From Candidatus Heimdallarchaeota archaeon (GTDB taxonomy: Archaea; Asgardarchaeota; Heimdallarchaeia; Heimdallarchaeales; Heimdallarchaeaceae): a DNA stretch of 38,489 nucleotides. This document shows positions 4,402 through 7,651 of the stretch, one piece after another. The translations under genes were made by a program, and so were the position numbers. The stretch's first letter is position 1; each line of letters begins with the position of its first letter. The stretch is taken from assembly GCA_021399345.1 (NCBI GenBank), contig JAAFKI010000136.1, forward strand, positions 1 through 38,489, given 5' to 3'. Under the pieces are notes generated by a model that worked only from the letters and a program-made list of their open reading frames with translations, ran no database searches and was not told the DNA's origin.

Positions 4402-4415
4402 TCTCCTCTTTTTTT
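4402..4415 (+). terminator. Putative archaeal oligo-T terminator after the M42 gene
   Basis: TCTCCTCTTTTTTT immediately follows the stop codon, between convergent genes. Confidence 0.4.
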
Positions 4416-5250
4416 ACTCTATCAGCATAGTATAATCAAAATTCTTTACTGAGTGCGTAAGTGATCCTGAGGATATTAGGTCTACTCCTTCTAATGCATA
4501 ATCTTGTAGATTTTCAAGATTAATGTTACCTGACAATTCGATCAACACATCCTTCTTAATTGACTTGATTTTTGGAATTGTCAGTTTTATTAGTTGGGGA
4601 GAAAAATTGTCTAACATGATTATATCCACACCAGCTTTAGCTGCTTCCATAGCTTGCTCTTCATTTTGAACCTCAACCTCAATTTTCTTACTGAAGCTAG
4701 TGATCTCTTTAGCTTTTGTAATTGCTTCTGTGATTGACTTGAAGCCTCCAAGATGATTTTCTTTAAGTAGAATCATATCAGATAGATTGAACCTATGAGT
4801 ATCTCCTCCACCTGCAACAACAGCATATTTATCATATTTCCCTAAACCAGGAACTACCTTTCTTGTTGCACAGATTTTCAATTGAGGATTTATTTCGTGA
4901 GCTATTTCAATCATTTTAGCTGTTTGGGTAGCAATTCCTGATAATCTTCCAAGAATATTCAAAGATACTCTTTCAGCTTGTAACAGATTGTGTATATTTC
5001 CATCAAAAGAAGCAACAGCTGTTTTCTTTGATACTTTCTCTCCCTCTTTTACCAATATATCCAGTTTTGACCCTAAAAACTCAAAGATTCTTTTTATGAA
5101 GATGAGACCAGCAACAACTCCTTCTTGTTTTGAATAGATTTTTCCTTTAGCATTCGTACAAGGTAGAAGTGAAGTTGTAACATCCCAGTAAGGTATATCT
5201 TCCTCTATCCACTTCTTAATATCTTCATCAACTAAAACTAGGGGTATCAT
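4414..5250 (-). CDS. nadC: Nicotinate-nucleotide pyrophosphorylase (carboxylating), quinolinate phosphoribosyltransferase
   Basis: ED..DVTT, ERVSLN, SGIATQT, ATRK, HRFNLSDMILLKENH, IEVEV, IMLDN and SGNI motifs; lies downstream of nadA. Confidence 0.96.
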   Translation of the reverse strand: MIPLVLVDEDIKKWIEEDIPYWDVTTSLLPCTNAKGKIYSKQEGVVAGLIFIKRIFEFLGSKLDILVKEGEKVSKKTAVASFDGNIHNLLQAERVSLNILGRLSGIATQTAKMIEIAHEINPQLKICATRKVVPGLGKYDKYAVVAGGGDTHRFNLSDMILLKENHLGGFKSITEAITKAKEITSFSKKIEVEVQNEEQAMEAAKAGVDIIMLDNFSPQLIKLTIPKIKSIKKDVLIELSGNINLENLQDYALEGVDLISSGSLTHSVKNFDYTMLIE

Positions 5251-5268
5251 CCTTTTTTAACTCTCTGA

Positions 5269-6294
5269 TTAGTATTTCAGCATATTGCTAACAGCTCTGT
5301 AAGCTTTTTTACGAACTTCTTCATCTAATTCTATAATATTATCGTCTGTTGGCTTTTCGAGAGCTTTCCAAATCGAGAAAAGATCATTTCTCTTCATGCT
5401 AATGCATATCATTTTACTATCCTCAAAATGGATATCAGGATATTCAATTTTCATTCTGTCAATGAACCCTTGTTCGGTTAAGAAAAGAACCTTTTCATCT
5501 TTTGGAGCTTTGGCTGCATACCTGTGCATATCCCCTGTTCCCCCTACAAAATCTACAGAATCAATAATTTCAGGTCGGCATTCAAAATGAGCAAGAGTTT
5601 TTGTATTGTCATCAAGAATTAATTGTTCCAATCTTCTGATTGTGAGTGCATTGTGAGTTCTACAGGAACCTGGCCAAGTTATAATCTTTTTACCAGTAAT
5701 TTTTGCTAAATTATTTCCCATGTTCTCATCGGGAATAAATATGACAGTGTCTTCTTCCAAACTATCTGTGATTTTTCGAGCATTAGCTGAGGTACAGCAA
5801 ATATCTGACTCAGCTTTTACTTCTGCGCTTGTATTAACATAGCAAACAACAGGTGCTCCTGGATATTCTTCCTTAAGTTTTCTAACATCTTCACTTGTTA
5901 TTGAATCTGCTAGAGTACAATCTCTTCCTATTGCTGGAACTAAAATTAACTTCTCTGGATTAAGAATCTTCACAGATTCTGCCATAAAATCAACTCCACA
6001 GAAAAGAATTCGTTTCTCTCTAATTTCAGTTGCTTTCTTAGCAAGAGCAAGCGAATCACCAACAATGTCTGCAATTCCAAAAACAATATCAGCTGTTTGA
6101 TAGGAATGAGCAAGTATCTTGAATCCTCTTTCTTTCTTTAGTTGGTTAATTTTATATGTAAAAGGAGCAATTGATTCGCAAGCATTTTTAGTCCATCCTA
6201 GAGGATTCAATTTTGTAAATAATCTATCAACTTCTTCCTCTAGTAATCCAAACTCCTCACTTCTTATTTCAGGAGTTTCTTCTACAACCACCAT
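5269..6294 (-). CDS. nadA: Quinolinate synthase A (4Fe-4S)
   Basis: LAHSYQ, GDSLAL, FCGVDFMAE, YVNTSAEVKA, CTSANA and AHFEC motifs; Cys-containing motifs DCTLAD, SCRTH and CISMK. Confidence 0.96.
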   Translation of the reverse strand: MVVVEETPEIRSEEFGLLEEEVDRLFTKLNPLGWTKNACESIAPFTYKINQLKKERGFKILAHSYQTADIVFGIADIVGDSLALAKKATEIREKRILFCGVDFMAESVKILNPEKLILVPAIGRDCTLADSITSEDVRKLKEEYPGAPVVCYVNTSAEVKAESDICCTSANARKITDSLEEDTVIFIPDENMGNNLAKITGKKIITWPGSCRTHNALTIRRLEQLILDDNTKTLAHFECRPEIIDSVDFVGGTGDMHRYAAKAPKDEKVLFLTEQGFIDRMKIEYPDIHFEDSKMICISMKRNDLFSIWKALEKPTDDNIIELDEEVRKKAYRAVSNMLKY

Positions 6295-6604
6295 CTCAAC
6301 CGAACTACCCTTTTATGAATTGTATTTAAAGACTGTTTGATTAAGGTCAAAATTGAACTTAAATTTTTAATAGAAGCCTTGAAACTCAAGAAAAATGCAC
6401 TATTGAAGTAATTTCTAGTATAGTATAAGCAATAATTGCCTATTATTCTTAAAGGAAAAGCTTGAAGAAGTATGTTTGAGTGCTTCTAAGCTCATTTATG
6501 TATTGGCGATATGTATATTAAGAGCATCTAAAATTTGGTTTTCTGTGGATAAATATAAATAAACATTTATCATTAATAATAAAGTAAGGAATGTAGATGA
6601 AACC

Positions 6605-7651
6605 ATGATTTTGGCTCTATATGTGTCCAATGATTCTAACTCACAAAAGTTTGCTGGAATAATAAAGGAGACGCTTCTTGAAATTAATCCAGAAGTTGAA
6701 ATCATTGAATTCGAAGATGAAGAATTGAATGAAAACAATTGGGAAAATCAGATGAAAGATTTCTCAACACAAAAAGCAAACTGCATCATCTCAGTAGGCG
6801 ATGCAGGTACATTTCTTAGAGCTATTTTTCTTTCAAGATCATCAGTTCCAGTTGTTGCTGCATCGTCTGAAAGCGTAAGTTTCTTTACTGAAATAAGTCC
6901 AGTTAATCTTCAGTATACCTTAACAAGTATCCTGAATCGAAAATATGATGTCGATAACTATCATAGAGTAGTTTTTCTAGATTCTGGAAATGGTACGCCA
7001 ATTCCTGCACTAAATGAGATAGCTATATTCCCAAAAGATTCAGCACTTTTAATGAATTATACATTAATAATAGATAAGAATCAGCTTTATAGAGGTAGAG
7101 CTGATGGACTAATTGTGTCTACATCTTTAGGAAGTACAGGTTATGCTCTCTCATCAGGCGGTCCTATAGCTTTTGGAAACCCAGATGTTCTGATTATAGT
7201 TCCAGTTAATCCATTGAATAAAGAACACATTCCTTTGGTAGTTCCAATTGATTCAGAGATCAAATTGGTAAACTTGCGTTCAAGATCTCCTCTGGAAGCA
7301 ATAATTGATGGGCAAATAAGAATAGGTATCGATGAGGAAGTATTAGTTAGAAAATCGTCCTCAACAGCTAGAATTATACGATTTCATGCTAAGAAAAACA
7401 TACTTGCTAAACTAAGAAATAGATTAGTTGAGTTAGATCTGAGAACTTTAGAGCGTGTTCCTCCTTCTGCAAAATATATTTTTAAATTGCTTTTAACTGA
7501 AGGAGAAATGACACAGAAAGAATTGATTGAAAGTACAGGATTACCTAATAGAACTGTTCGTAATGCTCTATCTATTCTCAAAGAGAAAGGGGTCATTAAT
7601 CAAAGACCTCATCTACGAGATGCTAGACAATCAATCTATTTTGTTGACTAA
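6605..7651 (+). CDS. NAD kinase family protein with C-terminal winged helix-turn-helix
   Basis: NADK motifs ALNE, DGLIVSTSLGSTGYALSSGGP and IIDGQ; the GGDGT motif reads GDAGT; C-terminal PPSAKYIFKLL..MTQKELIESTGLPNRTVRNALSILKEKGVI..RDARQSIY is a MarR/TrmB-like wHTH. Confidence 0.88.
   Translation: MILALYVSNDSNSQKFAGIIKETLLEINPEVEIIEFEDEELNENNWENQMKDFSTQKANCIISVGDAGTFLRAIFLSRSSVPVVAASSESVSFFTEISPVNLQYTLTSILNRKYDVDNYHRVVFLDSGNGTPIPALNEIAIFPKDSALLMNYTLIIDKNQLYRGRADGLIVSTSLGSTGYALSSGGPIAFGNPDVLIIVPVNPLNKEHIPLVVPIDSEIKLVNLRSRSPLEAIIDGQIRIGIDEEVLVRKSSSTARIIRFHAKKNILAKLRNRLVELDLRTLERVPPSAKYIFKLLLTEGEMTQKELIESTGLPNRTVRNALSILKEKGVINQRPHLRDARQSIYFVD

What the first reader, a model, noticed from the sequence alone, without database searches (positions are those of the whole stretch)
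4414..7651. Degenerate NAD kinase fused to a winged HTH, divergent from nadA-nadC: candidate NAD(P)-sensing regulator
Seen: the catalytic GGDGT motif reads GDAGT, with Ala at the Asp position. The usual GxNxGxLGFL segment reads AASSESVSFF. The NAD-binding NE and Gly-rich DG..STxxGSTGY..S.GGP motifs are intact. A ~70-aa wHTH follows, and the gene is head-to-head with nadAC across 310 bp. Known: the GGDGT Asp is needed for NADK catalysis, and characterised NAD regulators (NadR, NiaR, NrtR, NadQ) use other sensor domains. I recall NADK-HTH fusions in other archaea, so the architecture may not be new, but I know of no regulatory role shown for them. Inference: an enzyme-derived one-component regulator of de novo NAD synthesis.
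Basis: partly seen in the sequence, partly recalled or inferred. Interest (0 to 1): 0.72.

Follow-up and report, generated by a model that had tools for sequence, protein, structure and literature searches.

The report
NAD-kinase-derived regulator of archaeal NAD synthesis
A Heimdall-type Asgard archaeon carries a disabled copy of the enzyme NAD kinase joined to a DNA-binding domain, and comparison across archaea indicates that it is a so far undescribed switch for the genes that make the coenzyme NAD.

Summary
Gene 6605-7651 (+) encodes a 348-aa protein with a full NAD-kinase fold and a C-terminal winged helix. The catalytic GGDGT motif reads GDAGT, with Ala at the Asp position, and GxNxGxLGFL reads AASSESVSFF. 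The NAD-recognition residues (N137/E138, T178/Y180, the Gly-rich motif) are intact. The gene lies head-to-head with nadA-nadC across 310 bp.

The genome has a separate canonical NADK with GGDGT on another contig. The divergent nadAC arrangement holds in 19 of 20 same-genus loci. Relatives at 31-42% identity in other archaeal lineages sit beside NAD genes in 8 of 13 contexts examined.

The spacer holds a conserved 15-bp palindrome, AAGCAATAATTGCCT (6427-6441), which is the best match in the whole genome. A matrix built only from the Heimdall sites finds the same palindrome beside the regulator in five other lineages. The wHTH recognition helix is invariant family-wide, and all fused forms make one clade apart from canonical NADKs.

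The architecture is widespread, with about 70 clusters at 50% identity, and some members keep GGDGT. DNA binding, the ligand and the sign of regulation are untested. I found no paper describing this family. This scan has already reported the same family on other genomes, with the same conclusion.

The parts
4414..5250 (-). nadC, quinolinate phosphoribosyltransferase (278 aa); second gene of the nadA-nadC operon
   Evidence: TIGR00078 314 bits, QRPTase_N and QRPTase_C. Follows nadA after 18 nt.
5269..6294 (-). nadA, quinolinate synthase (341 aa)
   Evidence: PF02445 322 bits, NF006878 323 bits.
6323..6330 (-). Probable nadA TATA box (TTTAAATA on the minus strand), 29-36 nt upstream of the nadA ATG
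   Evidence: tatttaaag is invariant or nearly so in 19 aligned spacers. The promoter role is inferred from the archaeal TATA consensus and its position.
6341..6358 (.). Conserved element TTAAGGTCAAAATTGAAC about 10 nt upstream of the nadA TATA; possible weak second operator
   Evidence: Conserved in 19 spacers. It resembles AGGCAAAATTTCAAC in L047 and AGGCAATTTTAACTG in L041, which lie 31-32 bp from the main palindrome there. Its role is inferred only.
6427..6441 (.). Candidate operator O1: AAGCAATAATTGCCT, a 6-3-6 palindrome (consensus AGGCAA-N3-TTGCCT)
   Evidence: Conserved in 19 of 19 spacers. It is the top hit in the 3.27-Mb genome at 21.1 bits; the next intergenic hit scores 16.0. The same palindrome lies beside the regulator in L041 (22.6 bits), L046 (21.3), L144 (17.8), L047 (13.4 and 13.7) and L056 (12.3).
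6496..6516 (.). Second conserved palindrome TTATGTATTGGCGATATGTAT (TAYGTAT-N5-ATAYRTA), about 35 nt upstream of the likely regulator TATA; probably the site of another factor
   Evidence: Conserved in 19 spacers. Two other genome hits score no better than chance allows.
6549..6565 (+). Likely TATA region of the regulator gene (GATAAATATAAATAAAC)
   Evidence: An A/T box 40-55 nt upstream of the ATG, with similar ATAA.T.TAAATAA boxes in most orthologous spacers. Weak and inferred.
6605..7651 (+). NADK-wHTH fusion gene (348 aa): candidate NAD(P)-sensing transcription factor
6797..6811 (+). Remodelled motif I, GDAGT (aa 65-69), in place of GGDGT; Ala67 at the catalytic Asp position
   Evidence: G65 and G68-T-F-L are invariant among 32 family orthologs.
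6857..6886 (+). Remodelled motif II, AASSESVSFF (aa 85-94), in place of GxNxGxLGFL
7013..7018 (+). NE motif (N137, E138), dinucleotide recognition
   Evidence: N137 is invariant in 53 family members. Role as given in PMC9763689.
7103..7165 (+). Gly-rich NAD-binding region DGLIVSTSLGSTGYALSSGGP (aa 167-187); also the core of the predicted dimer interface
   Evidence: D167, G168, G176, S177, T178, Y180 and G186 are invariant. Interface residues 156-217.
7460..7648 (+). Winged helix-turn-helix (aa 286-348) with recognition helix LPNRTVRNAL
   Evidence: HTH_24 24.6 bits, above its cut-off of 21.9. The model has three helices and a beta-wing at pLDDT 83-93. R316, T317 and L325 are invariant; L313, P314, V318, R319 and L322 are at least 90% conserved.

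Best explanation
Gene 6605-7651 encodes a homo-oligomeric, one-component transcription factor built from an NAD-kinase paralogue. The paralogue has lost its phosphoryl-transfer apparatus but keeps the dinucleotide pocket, which now serves as the sensor. Through its C-terminal winged helices a dimer binds the palindrome AAGCAATAATTGCCT (6427-6441) in the spacer shared with nadA-nadC. Occupancy of the pocket by NAD, or a close relative such as NADP(H), NADH or NaAD, changes DNA binding. This adjusts transcription of the de novo NAD genes nadA-nadC and probably of the regulator itself. Real NADP synthesis is left to the canonical NADK on another contig. Shown here: the architecture and motif states, the second NADK, conserved linkage to NAD genes, recurrence of the palindrome across lineages, the invariant recognition helix, and a single clade of fused forms. 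Inferred: DNA binding, loss of kinase activity, ligand identity and the dimer-interface allostery. Open: the sign of regulation. I put NAD-dependent repression at about 50%, activation when NAD is low at about 35%, and position-dependent dual action for the rest.
For: 1. The fold is that of NADK. The AF2 model has pLDDT 88.6 and matches NADK structures with Foldseek E about 1e-22, TM by target 0.8-0.87. HMMER gives E 6e-24 to 1SUW.
2. The catalytic Asp is replaced by Ala and motif II is lost, while N137/E138, T178/Y180 and the Gly-rich motif are kept. The roles of these residues are described in PMC9763689.
3. The remodelled motifs are themselves conserved among 32 orthologs, and the wHTH is the most conserved part at 84% mean identity. 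The protein is therefore under selection, not decaying.
4. The own genome has a canonical 279-aa NADK with GGDGT, GVNCGKVGFL and ND at C115:71738-72601. Same-genus genomes have both genes.
5. nadA-nadC is divergent in 19 of 20 same-genus loci at 66-97% regulator identity. Of the 5 genus genomes without the fusion, 4 also lack nadA and 1 has nadA at a contig edge.
6. In other lineages the homolog is divergent to nadA-nadC-aspDH (L041, L044, L145), to nadA (L047, Thorarchaeota L056) or to a QRPTase gene (L144). It is followed by an NAPRT-like gene in L046, and in L049 it lies next to nadK-nadM-NAPRT and pncA-nadE. That is 8 of 13 contexts.
7. The palindrome is conserved in 19 of 19 spacers and is the best site in the genome. 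A matrix made only from Heimdall sites scores 22.6, 21.3, 17.8, 13.4/13.7 and 12.3 bits beside the regulator in five other lineages. The background for at least 11 bits is about 1 site per 29 kb.
8. Five same-order genomes without the fusion have nadA but no site of 12 bits or more upstream of it.
9. The recognition helix LPxRTVRxAL is invariant or nearly so across the family, which fits a shared operator.
10. On the NADK domain alone, all 71 fused rows fall in one clade (SH-like support 99), apart from 60 canonical NADKs that include this genome's own.
11. The homodimer model scores ipSAE 0.43 against a best control of 0.00. That mark was reached by 20 of 30 proteins solved as pairs and 1 of 23 solved as single chains. 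The runs share at least 84% of contacts and the partner pLDDT is at least 79. The interface, residues 156-217, includes the NAD motif. NADK oligomers are solved, so this pass may reflect likeness to them.
Against: No experiment exists; everything rests on comparative genomics and models.

In this genus O1 lies about 96 nt from the nadA TATA and about 110 nt from the likely regulator TATA. It does not overlap a core promoter, which is the usual place for an archaeal repressor site.

No other NAD gene of this genome (aspDH, nadM, nadE, nadK) has a convincing site, so the regulon looks purely local.

Five of the 13 distant contexts show no NAD gene, and 8 show no palindrome of 12 bits or more.

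The exact consensus AGGCAANNNTTGCCT also occurs elsewhere in Asgard genomes, mostly inside genes and never next to NAD genes in the 30 loci examined. The motif alone is therefore not diagnostic.

Some family members keep GGDGT, so a kinase-dead sensor cannot be generalised to the family. Residual activity of this protein has not been excluded.
Confidence: 0.75

Rival explanations
1. It is a transcription factor for nadAC, but the pocket senses redox state (the NADH/NAD+ or NADPH/NADP+ ratio, as Rex does) or a pathway intermediate such as NaAD or NMN, or ATP, rather than the size of the NAD pool.
For: NADKs bind NAD, NADH and NADP in the same pocket (solved complexes listed). The remodelled, conserved Gly/Thr-rich loop G-x-x-G-T-F-L-R could contact a 2'-phosphate. 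In L047 a second site precedes LarA; from my own knowledge, its nickel-pincer cofactor is made from NaAD.
Against: The genes beside the regulator in 8 lineages are NAD synthesis and salvage genes, not redox enzymes. In this genome the only strong site is at nadA.
Confidence: 0.2
2. It is a bifunctional enzyme and regulator like RbkR: still an active NAD kinase that also binds DNA.
For: 14 of 73 fused representatives keep GGDG[TS] and a normal motif II, so the ancestral fusion may have been active. RbkR sets the precedent (PMC5397151).
Against: Here the catalytic Asp is Ala or Thr in the whole clade and motif II is lost. Mutagenesis of this Asp abolishes function, as reviewed in PMC9763689. A canonical NADK coexists. 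The N-domain is the least conserved part, at 51% identity.
Confidence: 0.06
3. It is not a DNA-binding regulator. It is a pseudoenzyme subunit that joins or modulates the canonical NADK or another NAD enzyme, and the winged helix serves protein contacts.
For: NADKs are oligomers and the predicted interface is the canonical one, so mixed oligomers are conceivable. Winged helices can mediate protein contacts.
Against: A conserved palindrome recurs beside the gene in six lineages. The putative recognition helix, not a surface patch, is the invariant part. The gene is linked to nadA, nadC and NAPRT rather than to nadK, except in L049.
Confidence: 0.05
4. The adjacency to nadAC and the palindrome are inherited synteny without function, and the protein regulates unrelated genes.
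For: Within one genus, synteny alone is weak evidence. O1 is far from both core promoters, and a second, different palindrome (6496-6516) lies nearer the regulator promoter.
Against: NAD-gene adjacency recurs in different arrangements (divergent nadA, divergent nadC, co-directional NAPRT, a salvage cluster) at 31-42% protein identity. Inheritance cannot explain that.
Confidence: 0.03

Closest known systems
NAD kinase NadK/PpnK (EC 2.7.1.23), e.g. A. fulgidus 1SUW/1Z0S and M. tuberculosis 1U0T/1Y3H
   Same: Same two-domain fold. Same NE motif, Gly-rich region II with its Thr and Tyr, and a predicted dimer interface in the C-terminal domain.
   Different: GGDGT reads GDAGT with the catalytic Asp lost. 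GxNxGxLGFL is lost. A roughly 85-aa linker plus wHTH is added. All NCBIfam NADK equivalogs are missed by a wide margin. It belongs to a separate clade from canonical NADKs, including the one in the same genome.
RbkR, the archaeal riboflavin kinase/wHTH regulator (Rodionova et al. 2017, PMC5397151)
   Same: Archaeal cofactor-pathway enzyme fused to a MarR-like wHTH. It is encoded next to the pathway genes it controls, binds a palindrome, and responds to the pathway's nucleotide cofactor.
   Different: There is no sequence relationship. In RbkR the wHTH is N-terminal, the kinase is active and it is usually the only RibK. Here the wHTH is C-terminal, the kinase motifs are broken and a separate NADK exists. 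RbkR has been tested experimentally; this protein has not.
NrtR, the bacterial Nudix-related NAD regulator (PMC2330246, PMC6800001)
   Same: An NAD-pathway enzyme fold, often catalytically degenerate, reused as an effector domain with a C-terminal wHTH. It controls nadABC and salvage genes and is often divergently encoded.
   Different: A different sensor fold (Nudix, binding ADP-ribose) and a bacterial distribution. Pfam shows no Nudix domain here.
NadR, NiaR and NadQ, the other bacterial NAD regulators
   Same: The same physiological job: feedback control of NAD synthesis and salvage (PMC2330245; NadR as described in PMC5397151).
   Different: Unrelated domains (NMNAT/RNK with an N-terminal HTH; the 3H domain; NadQ). 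None is detected in this protein. I found none described for archaeal de novo NAD genes.

Membership tests
NAD kinase (Pfam PF01513 + PF20143; EC 2.7.1.23) | Two-domain NADK fold | tested here: met
   PF20143 73 bits and PF01513 37 bits, both above their cut-offs. AF2 model matched to NADK structures with Foldseek E about 1e-22.
NAD kinase (Pfam PF01513 + PF20143; EC 2.7.1.23) | GGDG motif with the catalytic Asp | tested here: not met
   GDAGT, with Ala67 aligned to the Asp by MAFFT and HMMER. The clade has A or T at this position.
NAD kinase (Pfam PF01513 + PF20143; EC 2.7.1.23) | NE/D motif and conserved region II (GSTxY, SxGGP) for NAD recognition | tested here: met
   N137/E138, T178/Y180 and G185-G186-P187 are present. 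N137, S177, T178, Y180 and G186 are invariant in the family.
NAD kinase (Pfam PF01513 + PF20143; EC 2.7.1.23) | Reaches a curated NADK equivalog score | tested here: not met
   Best match NF002984 at 143.7 bits against a cut-off of 326.
NAD kinase (Pfam PF01513 + PF20143; EC 2.7.1.23) | Phosphorylates NAD | not testable with these tools
   Needs an enzyme assay.
MarR/TrmB-type winged-helix transcription factors | wHTH domain (three helices plus a beta-wing) | tested here: met
   HTH_24 24.6 bits against a cut-off of 21.9; TrmB 23.3 and MarR_2 19.2 are below theirs. The model shows H287-299, H304-311, H315-327, E331-335 and E343-347.
MarR/TrmB-type winged-helix transcription factors | Binds a palindromic operator as a dimer | tested here: inconclusive
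   A conserved 6-3-6 palindrome lies beside the gene in six lineages, and the homodimer model passes its mark. There is no binding assay.
Archaeal NADK-wHTH fusion family (unnamed; annotated as 'NAD(+)/NADH kinase' or 'ATP-NAD/AcoX kinase') | NADK domain plus C-terminal wHTH with PPSAK...LPxRTVRxAL, forming one clade | tested here: met
Archaeal NADK-wHTH fusion family (unnamed; annotated as 'NAD(+)/NADH kinase' or 'ATP-NAD/AcoX kinase') | Encoded beside NAD synthesis or salvage genes, with an AGGCAA-N3-TTGCCT site | tested here: met
   Window: nadA-nadC plus a 21.1-bit site. Family: NAD genes in 8 of 13 contexts, sites in 5 of 13.
RbkR / NrtR / NadR / NiaR (known cofactor regulators) | Homologous sensor domain (CTP-dependent riboflavin kinase, Nudix, NMNAT/RNK, 3H) | tested here: not met
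   No such domain in the Pfam or NCBIfam scans. The resemblance is functional only.

The most novel reading that the evidence does not exclude
This is a member of the first transcription-factor family for NAD homeostasis in Archaea. It arose once by fusing an NAD kinase to a winged helix and then repeatedly lost catalysis, so that an enzyme's substrate pocket became a pure cofactor sensor. As an NADK-type dimer or tetramer it may bridge the strong palindrome and a weaker site next to the nadA promoter. Those sites are 84 bp apart here and 31-32 bp apart in two other lineages.
Probability: 0.7. Interest if true: 0.75.

Novelty: new variant of a known kind. Interest (0 to 1): 0.7.

Why it matters
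How archaea control NAD synthesis appears to be unknown. The characterised regulators (NadR, NiaR, NrtR, NadQ) are bacterial, and I found no archaeal counterpart in the papers searched.

If this family is the missing regulator, it gives an operator sequence and a candidate ligand that can be tested directly in vitro. It would also correct the annotation of roughly 70 clusters (at 50% identity) now labelled 'NAD(+)/NADH kinase', which inflates NADK counts in metabolic reconstructions of Asgard, DPANN, Thermoproteota and Thermoplasmatota genomes.

The family offers a graded natural series, from apparently intact kinase-regulators to kinase-dead sensors, for studying how an enzyme becomes a sensor.

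A compact NAD(P)-responsive DNA-binding protein could also serve as a biosensor part.

Tried and rejected
1. The search for related loci on genome contigs. No systematic census of contexts was therefore possible. The 13 contexts are a hand-picked sample of long contigs and tree-diverse representatives.

2. Reverse test with the exact consensus AGGCAANNNTTGCCT in 201 Asgard genomes. It found 35 sites in 33 genomes, against 13 sites for the reversed control. Of 30 loci examined, 25 sites were inside ORFs and none lay within 1.5 kb of NAD genes or the regulator. The test is uninformative because the Asgard regulators' own sites are imperfect (AAGCAA...TTGCCT...TTGCCA). It does show that the consensus alone is not diagnostic.

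3. Search for further regulon members in this genome. The next intergenic matrix hits (16.0 and 15.2 bits) precede a glycosyltransferase and mutL. A one-mismatch match to the core regex, 125 nt upstream of aspDH, lies inside the upstream aldo/keto reductase gene. I rejected all of these.

4. The Block 3 palindrome (6496-6516) as the regulator's operator. I rejected it in favour of O1, because only O1 recurs in other lineages. Block 3's two extra genome hits (23.3 and 21.7 bits) are about what chance gives.

5. ncRNA or riboswitch in the spacer: no Rfam match at E up to 1.

7. Literature: seven full-text searches and six papers read gave no description of an NADK-HTH regulator. The library is incomplete, so this is 'not found', not 'absent'.

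8. A shifted register in which D66 would be the catalytic Asp with an inserted Ala. I rejected it because position 66 varies (D/G/S/H) among orthologs while G65 and G68-T69 are fixed.

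
Full report
WHAT IS THERE. The window is contig C68 of a 3.27-Mb Asgard assembly that is 88.6% complete. Close homologs of the gene are labelled Heimdallarchaeaceae. The 348-aa protein matches NAD_kinase_C (73 bits, aa 136-259), the NADK N-domain weakly (37 bits, aa 33-114) and a winged helix (HTH_24 24.6 bits, aa 292-331). It falls far short of every NCBIfam NADK equivalog, with a best score of 144 bits against a cut-off of 326.

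THE MOTIFS. The translation reads GDAGT at aa 65-69, AASSESVSFF at 85-94, NE at 137-138 and DGLIVSTSLGSTGYALSSGGP at 167-187. MAFFT against the genome's own canonical NADK and HMMER against A. fulgidus NADK 1SUW/1Z0S (E 6e-24) both align SVGDAGT with SVGGDGT. Ala67 therefore sits at the catalytic Asp position. The alternative, that D66 is the Asp with one inserted residue, is unlikely, because position 66 varies (D/G/S/H) among orthologs while G65 and G68-T69-F-L are fixed.

A review of NADK (PMC9763689) assigns the roles of these residues. The GGDG Asp is the catalytic centre at the 2'-OH. The NE/D pair and the Thr and Tyr of region II recognise the dinucleotide. Mutagenesis shows all of them to be critical. 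Here the recognition residues are present and invariant across 53 family members (N137, S177, T178, Y180, G186), and the catalytic one is gone.

An AlphaFold2 model built on the family alignment is confident (pLDDT 88.6). It shows the two NADK domains, a low-confidence hinge at 272-276, and a three-helix wHTH with a wing. Its best PDB matches are all NAD kinases, with Foldseek E about 1e-22.

A SECOND NADK. The genome has four NADK-superfamily genes:
- The fusion in this window.
- A canonical 279-aa NADK at C115:71738-72601 with GGDGT, GVNCGKVGFL and ND.
- Two longer 'ATP-NAD kinase family' genes of about 373 aa, both with GGDGT.
Same-genus genomes likewise carry both the fusion and a canonical NADK of 284-292 aa.

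LINKAGE TO NAD GENES. In 19 of 20 same-genus loci that hold an ortholog (66-97% identity), nadA-nadC is divergent from it. The exception, L017, has 1167 bases upstream of the gene, up to the contig start, with no nadA match. Of the five genus genomes without the fusion, four also lack nadA with this query (72-80% complete), and one has nadA 76 nt from a contig end.

Relatives at 31-42% identity from unrelated archaeal lineages carry more weight:
- Divergent to nadA-nadC-aspartate dehydrogenase in L041-43, L044/45 and L145.
- Divergent to nadA in L047 and in a Thorarchaeota contig (L056).
- Divergent to a QRPTase gene in the GC-rich L144.
- Followed on the same strand by an NAPRT-like gene in L046.
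- Next to nadK-nadM-NAPRT and pncA-nadE in L049.
- Followed by an MFS transporter in L048 (Thermoplasmata), which may be a niacin transporter; this was not tested.
- No NAD gene seen in Vulcanisaeta (L040), Micrarchaeota (L057), or two short contigs of GGDGT-intact members (L142, L143).
That makes 8 of 13 hand-picked contexts, in several different arrangements. Inherited synteny cannot explain this.

THE OPERATOR. Aligning the 19 orthologous spacers gives three conserved blocks:
- Block 1: a perfect TATA box for nadA (TTTAAATA on the minus strand, 6323-6330) with an adjacent conserved element, TTAAGGTCAAAATTGAAC (6341-6358).
- Block 2: the palindrome AAGCAATAATTGCCT (6427-6441).
- Block 3: a different palindrome, TAYGTAT-N5-ATAYRTA (6496-6516).

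Reading the spacers of distant homologs, I found AGGCAATATTTGCCT between nadA and the regulator in L041. I then built a palindromic weight matrix from the 19 Heimdall sites alone and scanned the other loci. It scored:
- 22.6 bits in the L041 spacer.
- 21.3 bits between the regulator's stop and the NAPRT-like gene in L046.
- 17.8 bits (GGGCAAAATTTGCCC) in the GC-rich L144 spacer.
- 13.4 bits in the L047 spacer, plus 13.7 bits upstream of larA.
- 12.3 bits in the Thorarchaeota spacer.

In the window's own genome the nadA site is the top hit at 21.1 bits. Sites of at least 11 bits occur about once per 29 kb, and the next intergenic hits (16.0 and 15.2 bits) precede unrelated genes. Five same-order genomes without the fusion have nadA but no site of 12 bits or more upstream. 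The wHTH is the most conserved part of the protein, and its recognition helix LPxRTVRxAL is invariant or nearly so across the family. That is what a shared operator predicts. Rfam finds nothing in the spacer.

A CAUTION ON THE MOTIF. The exact consensus AGGCAANNNTTGCCT occurs 35 times in 201 sampled Asgard genomes, against 13 times for a reversed control. Of the 30 loci examined, 25 sites lie inside ORFs and none is near NAD genes or the regulator. The consensus alone is therefore not diagnostic. The evidence is its recurrence beside the regulator, not its rarity.

FAMILY AND HISTORY. A scan of 1.84 billion cluster representatives gives 69 clusters at E up to 1e-30. Fused forms, which align through residue about 345, give way to canonical 250-300-aa NADKs near E 1e-26.

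Among 73 fused representatives:
- 14 keep GGDG[TS], mostly with a normal motif II.
- About 42 keep the Asp but lose the glycines (G-x-D-x-x).
- 11 lack the Asp, including this clade (GDAGT, GSTGT).

A FastTree tree of the NADK domain alone separates 60 canonical NADKs, this genome's own among them, from an 80-row clade (SH-like support 99). That clade holds all 71 fused rows plus nine short rows that look like fragments. The GGDG-intact fusions cluster in one subclade. The tree is quick, midpoint-rooted and has many open forks, so only the main split should be trusted.

The simplest history is one old fusion, possibly bifunctional at first as RbkR is, followed by repeated loss of catalysis. 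Within the Heimdall family the N-domain is the least conserved part (51% mean identity, against 67% for the C-domain and 84% for the wHTH). The remodelled motifs (G..GTFLR, AS...SFFTE) are nevertheless fixed. They were remodelled and kept, not left to decay.

HOW IT PROBABLY WORKS. The 6-3-6 palindrome implies a dimer. A homodimer model passes its mark with ipSAE 0.43 against a best control of 0.00. That mark was reached by 20 of 30 proteins solved as pairs and 1 of 23 solved as single chains. The runs share at least 84% of contacts and the partner pLDDT is at least 79. The interface (residues 156-217) is the NADK C-domain and includes the Gly-rich NAD motif. Because NADK oligomers are solved, this pass may only reflect likeness to them. 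If it is real, the ligand pocket lies at the subunit interface, so ligand binding could reorient the two winged helices. This step is inferred.

The sign of regulation is open. In L041, L056, L144 and L046 the site abuts a TATA-like box on its TTGCCT side; that box is the only A/T-rich element in the GC-rich L144 spacer. The site therefore sits at the BRE position of the promoter reading rightwards, which is usually the regulator's own promoter. That fits autoregulation. For the nad gene, the proximal edge of the site is 71-75 nt from the start codon in L041, L056, L144 and L145, 116 nt in L047 and 133 nt here. This is upstream of the core promoter, which is more typical of archaeal activators, unless a second site is used.

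Such a second site is possible. The conserved 6341-6358 element next to the nadA TATA resembles half-palindromic AGGCAA sites that lie 31-32 bp from the main site in L041 and L047. Here the spacing is 84 bp, about eight helical turns. An NADK-type tetramer could bridge two such sites. This is speculation resting on three lineages.

WHAT IS KNOWN. Seven full-text searches and six papers read gave no description of an NADK-HTH regulator or of any archaeal NAD regulator. The library is incomplete, so this means 'not found'. The closest analogue in logic is RbkR, the archaeal riboflavin kinase/wHTH regulator (PMC5397151). The closest in physiology are the bacterial regulators NrtR, NiaR and NadR. 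None is homologous in its sensor domain. Databases name these proteins 'NAD(+)/NADH kinase' or 'ATP-NAD/AcoX kinase', which is probably wrong for this clade.

EARLIER NOTES OF THIS SCAN. After I had derived the palindrome, I looked up the scan's notes. The same family has been flagged on at least eight other genomes. Several follow-up agents reached the same conclusion: an NADK-derived regulator, a conserved palindrome, and RbkR as the analogue. One of them favoured activation. These are AI notes, not independent evidence. My results agree with them, and I checked the shared claims myself.

VERDICT. The feature is real and not an artefact. It is very probably a transcription factor for NAD synthesis genes (about 0.75-0.8), with a dinucleotide ligand likely (about 0.6) and the sign of regulation unknown. 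It is a new sensor family within a known kind of system, the enzyme-derived one-component regulators.

Noticed in passing
window 6496-6516; G000 C21:54970-54990; G000 C55:92063-92083: A second conserved palindrome in the nadA/regulator spacer (TAYGTAT-N5-ATAYRTA) has two look-alikes in the genome. One lies between two divergent [NiFe]-hydrogenase operons. The other lies about 160 nt upstream of a 90-aa stand-alone wHTH gene, close to a 373-aa NADK-family gene. Their scores (23.3 and 21.7 bits) are about what chance allows, so a shared second factor is only a lead.
   Followed up: partly
G000 C115:56715-57836 (+) and C55:89642-90823 (-): Two further NADK-superfamily genes of about 373 aa with intact GGDGT ('ATP-NAD kinase family' type) sit beside the canonical NADK and the fusion. 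That makes four paralogues in one Asgard genome. Their function is unexamined.
   Followed up: no
many contigs of G000-G040, e.g. G000 C184:11647-11883, C169:205149-205343, C55:92254-92451: Numerous small ORFs (73-135 aa) match the regulator's wHTH (aa 270-348) at 31-46% identity, several per genome. This is a large family of stand-alone winged-helix proteins related to the fused domain.
   Followed up: no
L047:6106-6120 and 6256-7518: In a Guaymas-type sediment contig, a second operator-like site (CGGCAAAATTTACCT, 13.7 bits) lies downstream of the regulator and about 135 nt upstream of a LarA-family gene. From my own knowledge, LarA's nickel-pincer cofactor is made from nicotinic acid adenine dinucleotide, so the regulon may extend to it.
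   Followed up: no
L048:6088-7470: In a Thermoplasmata contig the fused gene is followed by an MFS (Sugar_tr) transporter. It could be a NiaP-like niacin transporter. No palindrome was found there.
   Followed up: no
L049:4890-4995: The spacer upstream of the fused gene in the 'Parvarchaeota' contig reads like a tRNA gene, possibly with an intron (GCCGAGGTA...GGTTCGAATCCC...). I did not run it through ARAGORN.
   Followed up: no
G000 C88:53748-56364: The aspartate dehydrogenase needed upstream of NadA is not in the nadAC locus. It sits at the end of a minus-strand run with an aldo/keto reductase, a 90-aa ORF and a pyridoxamine-phosphate-oxidase-like gene, with no operator-like site. In other lineages aspDH is the third gene of the regulated operon.
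   Followed up: partly
window 5269-6294: NadA carries about 45 extra N-terminal residues before the Pfam domain begins (the match starts at aa 48). The extension is conserved in the genus orthologs, which align from residue 1.
   Followed up: no
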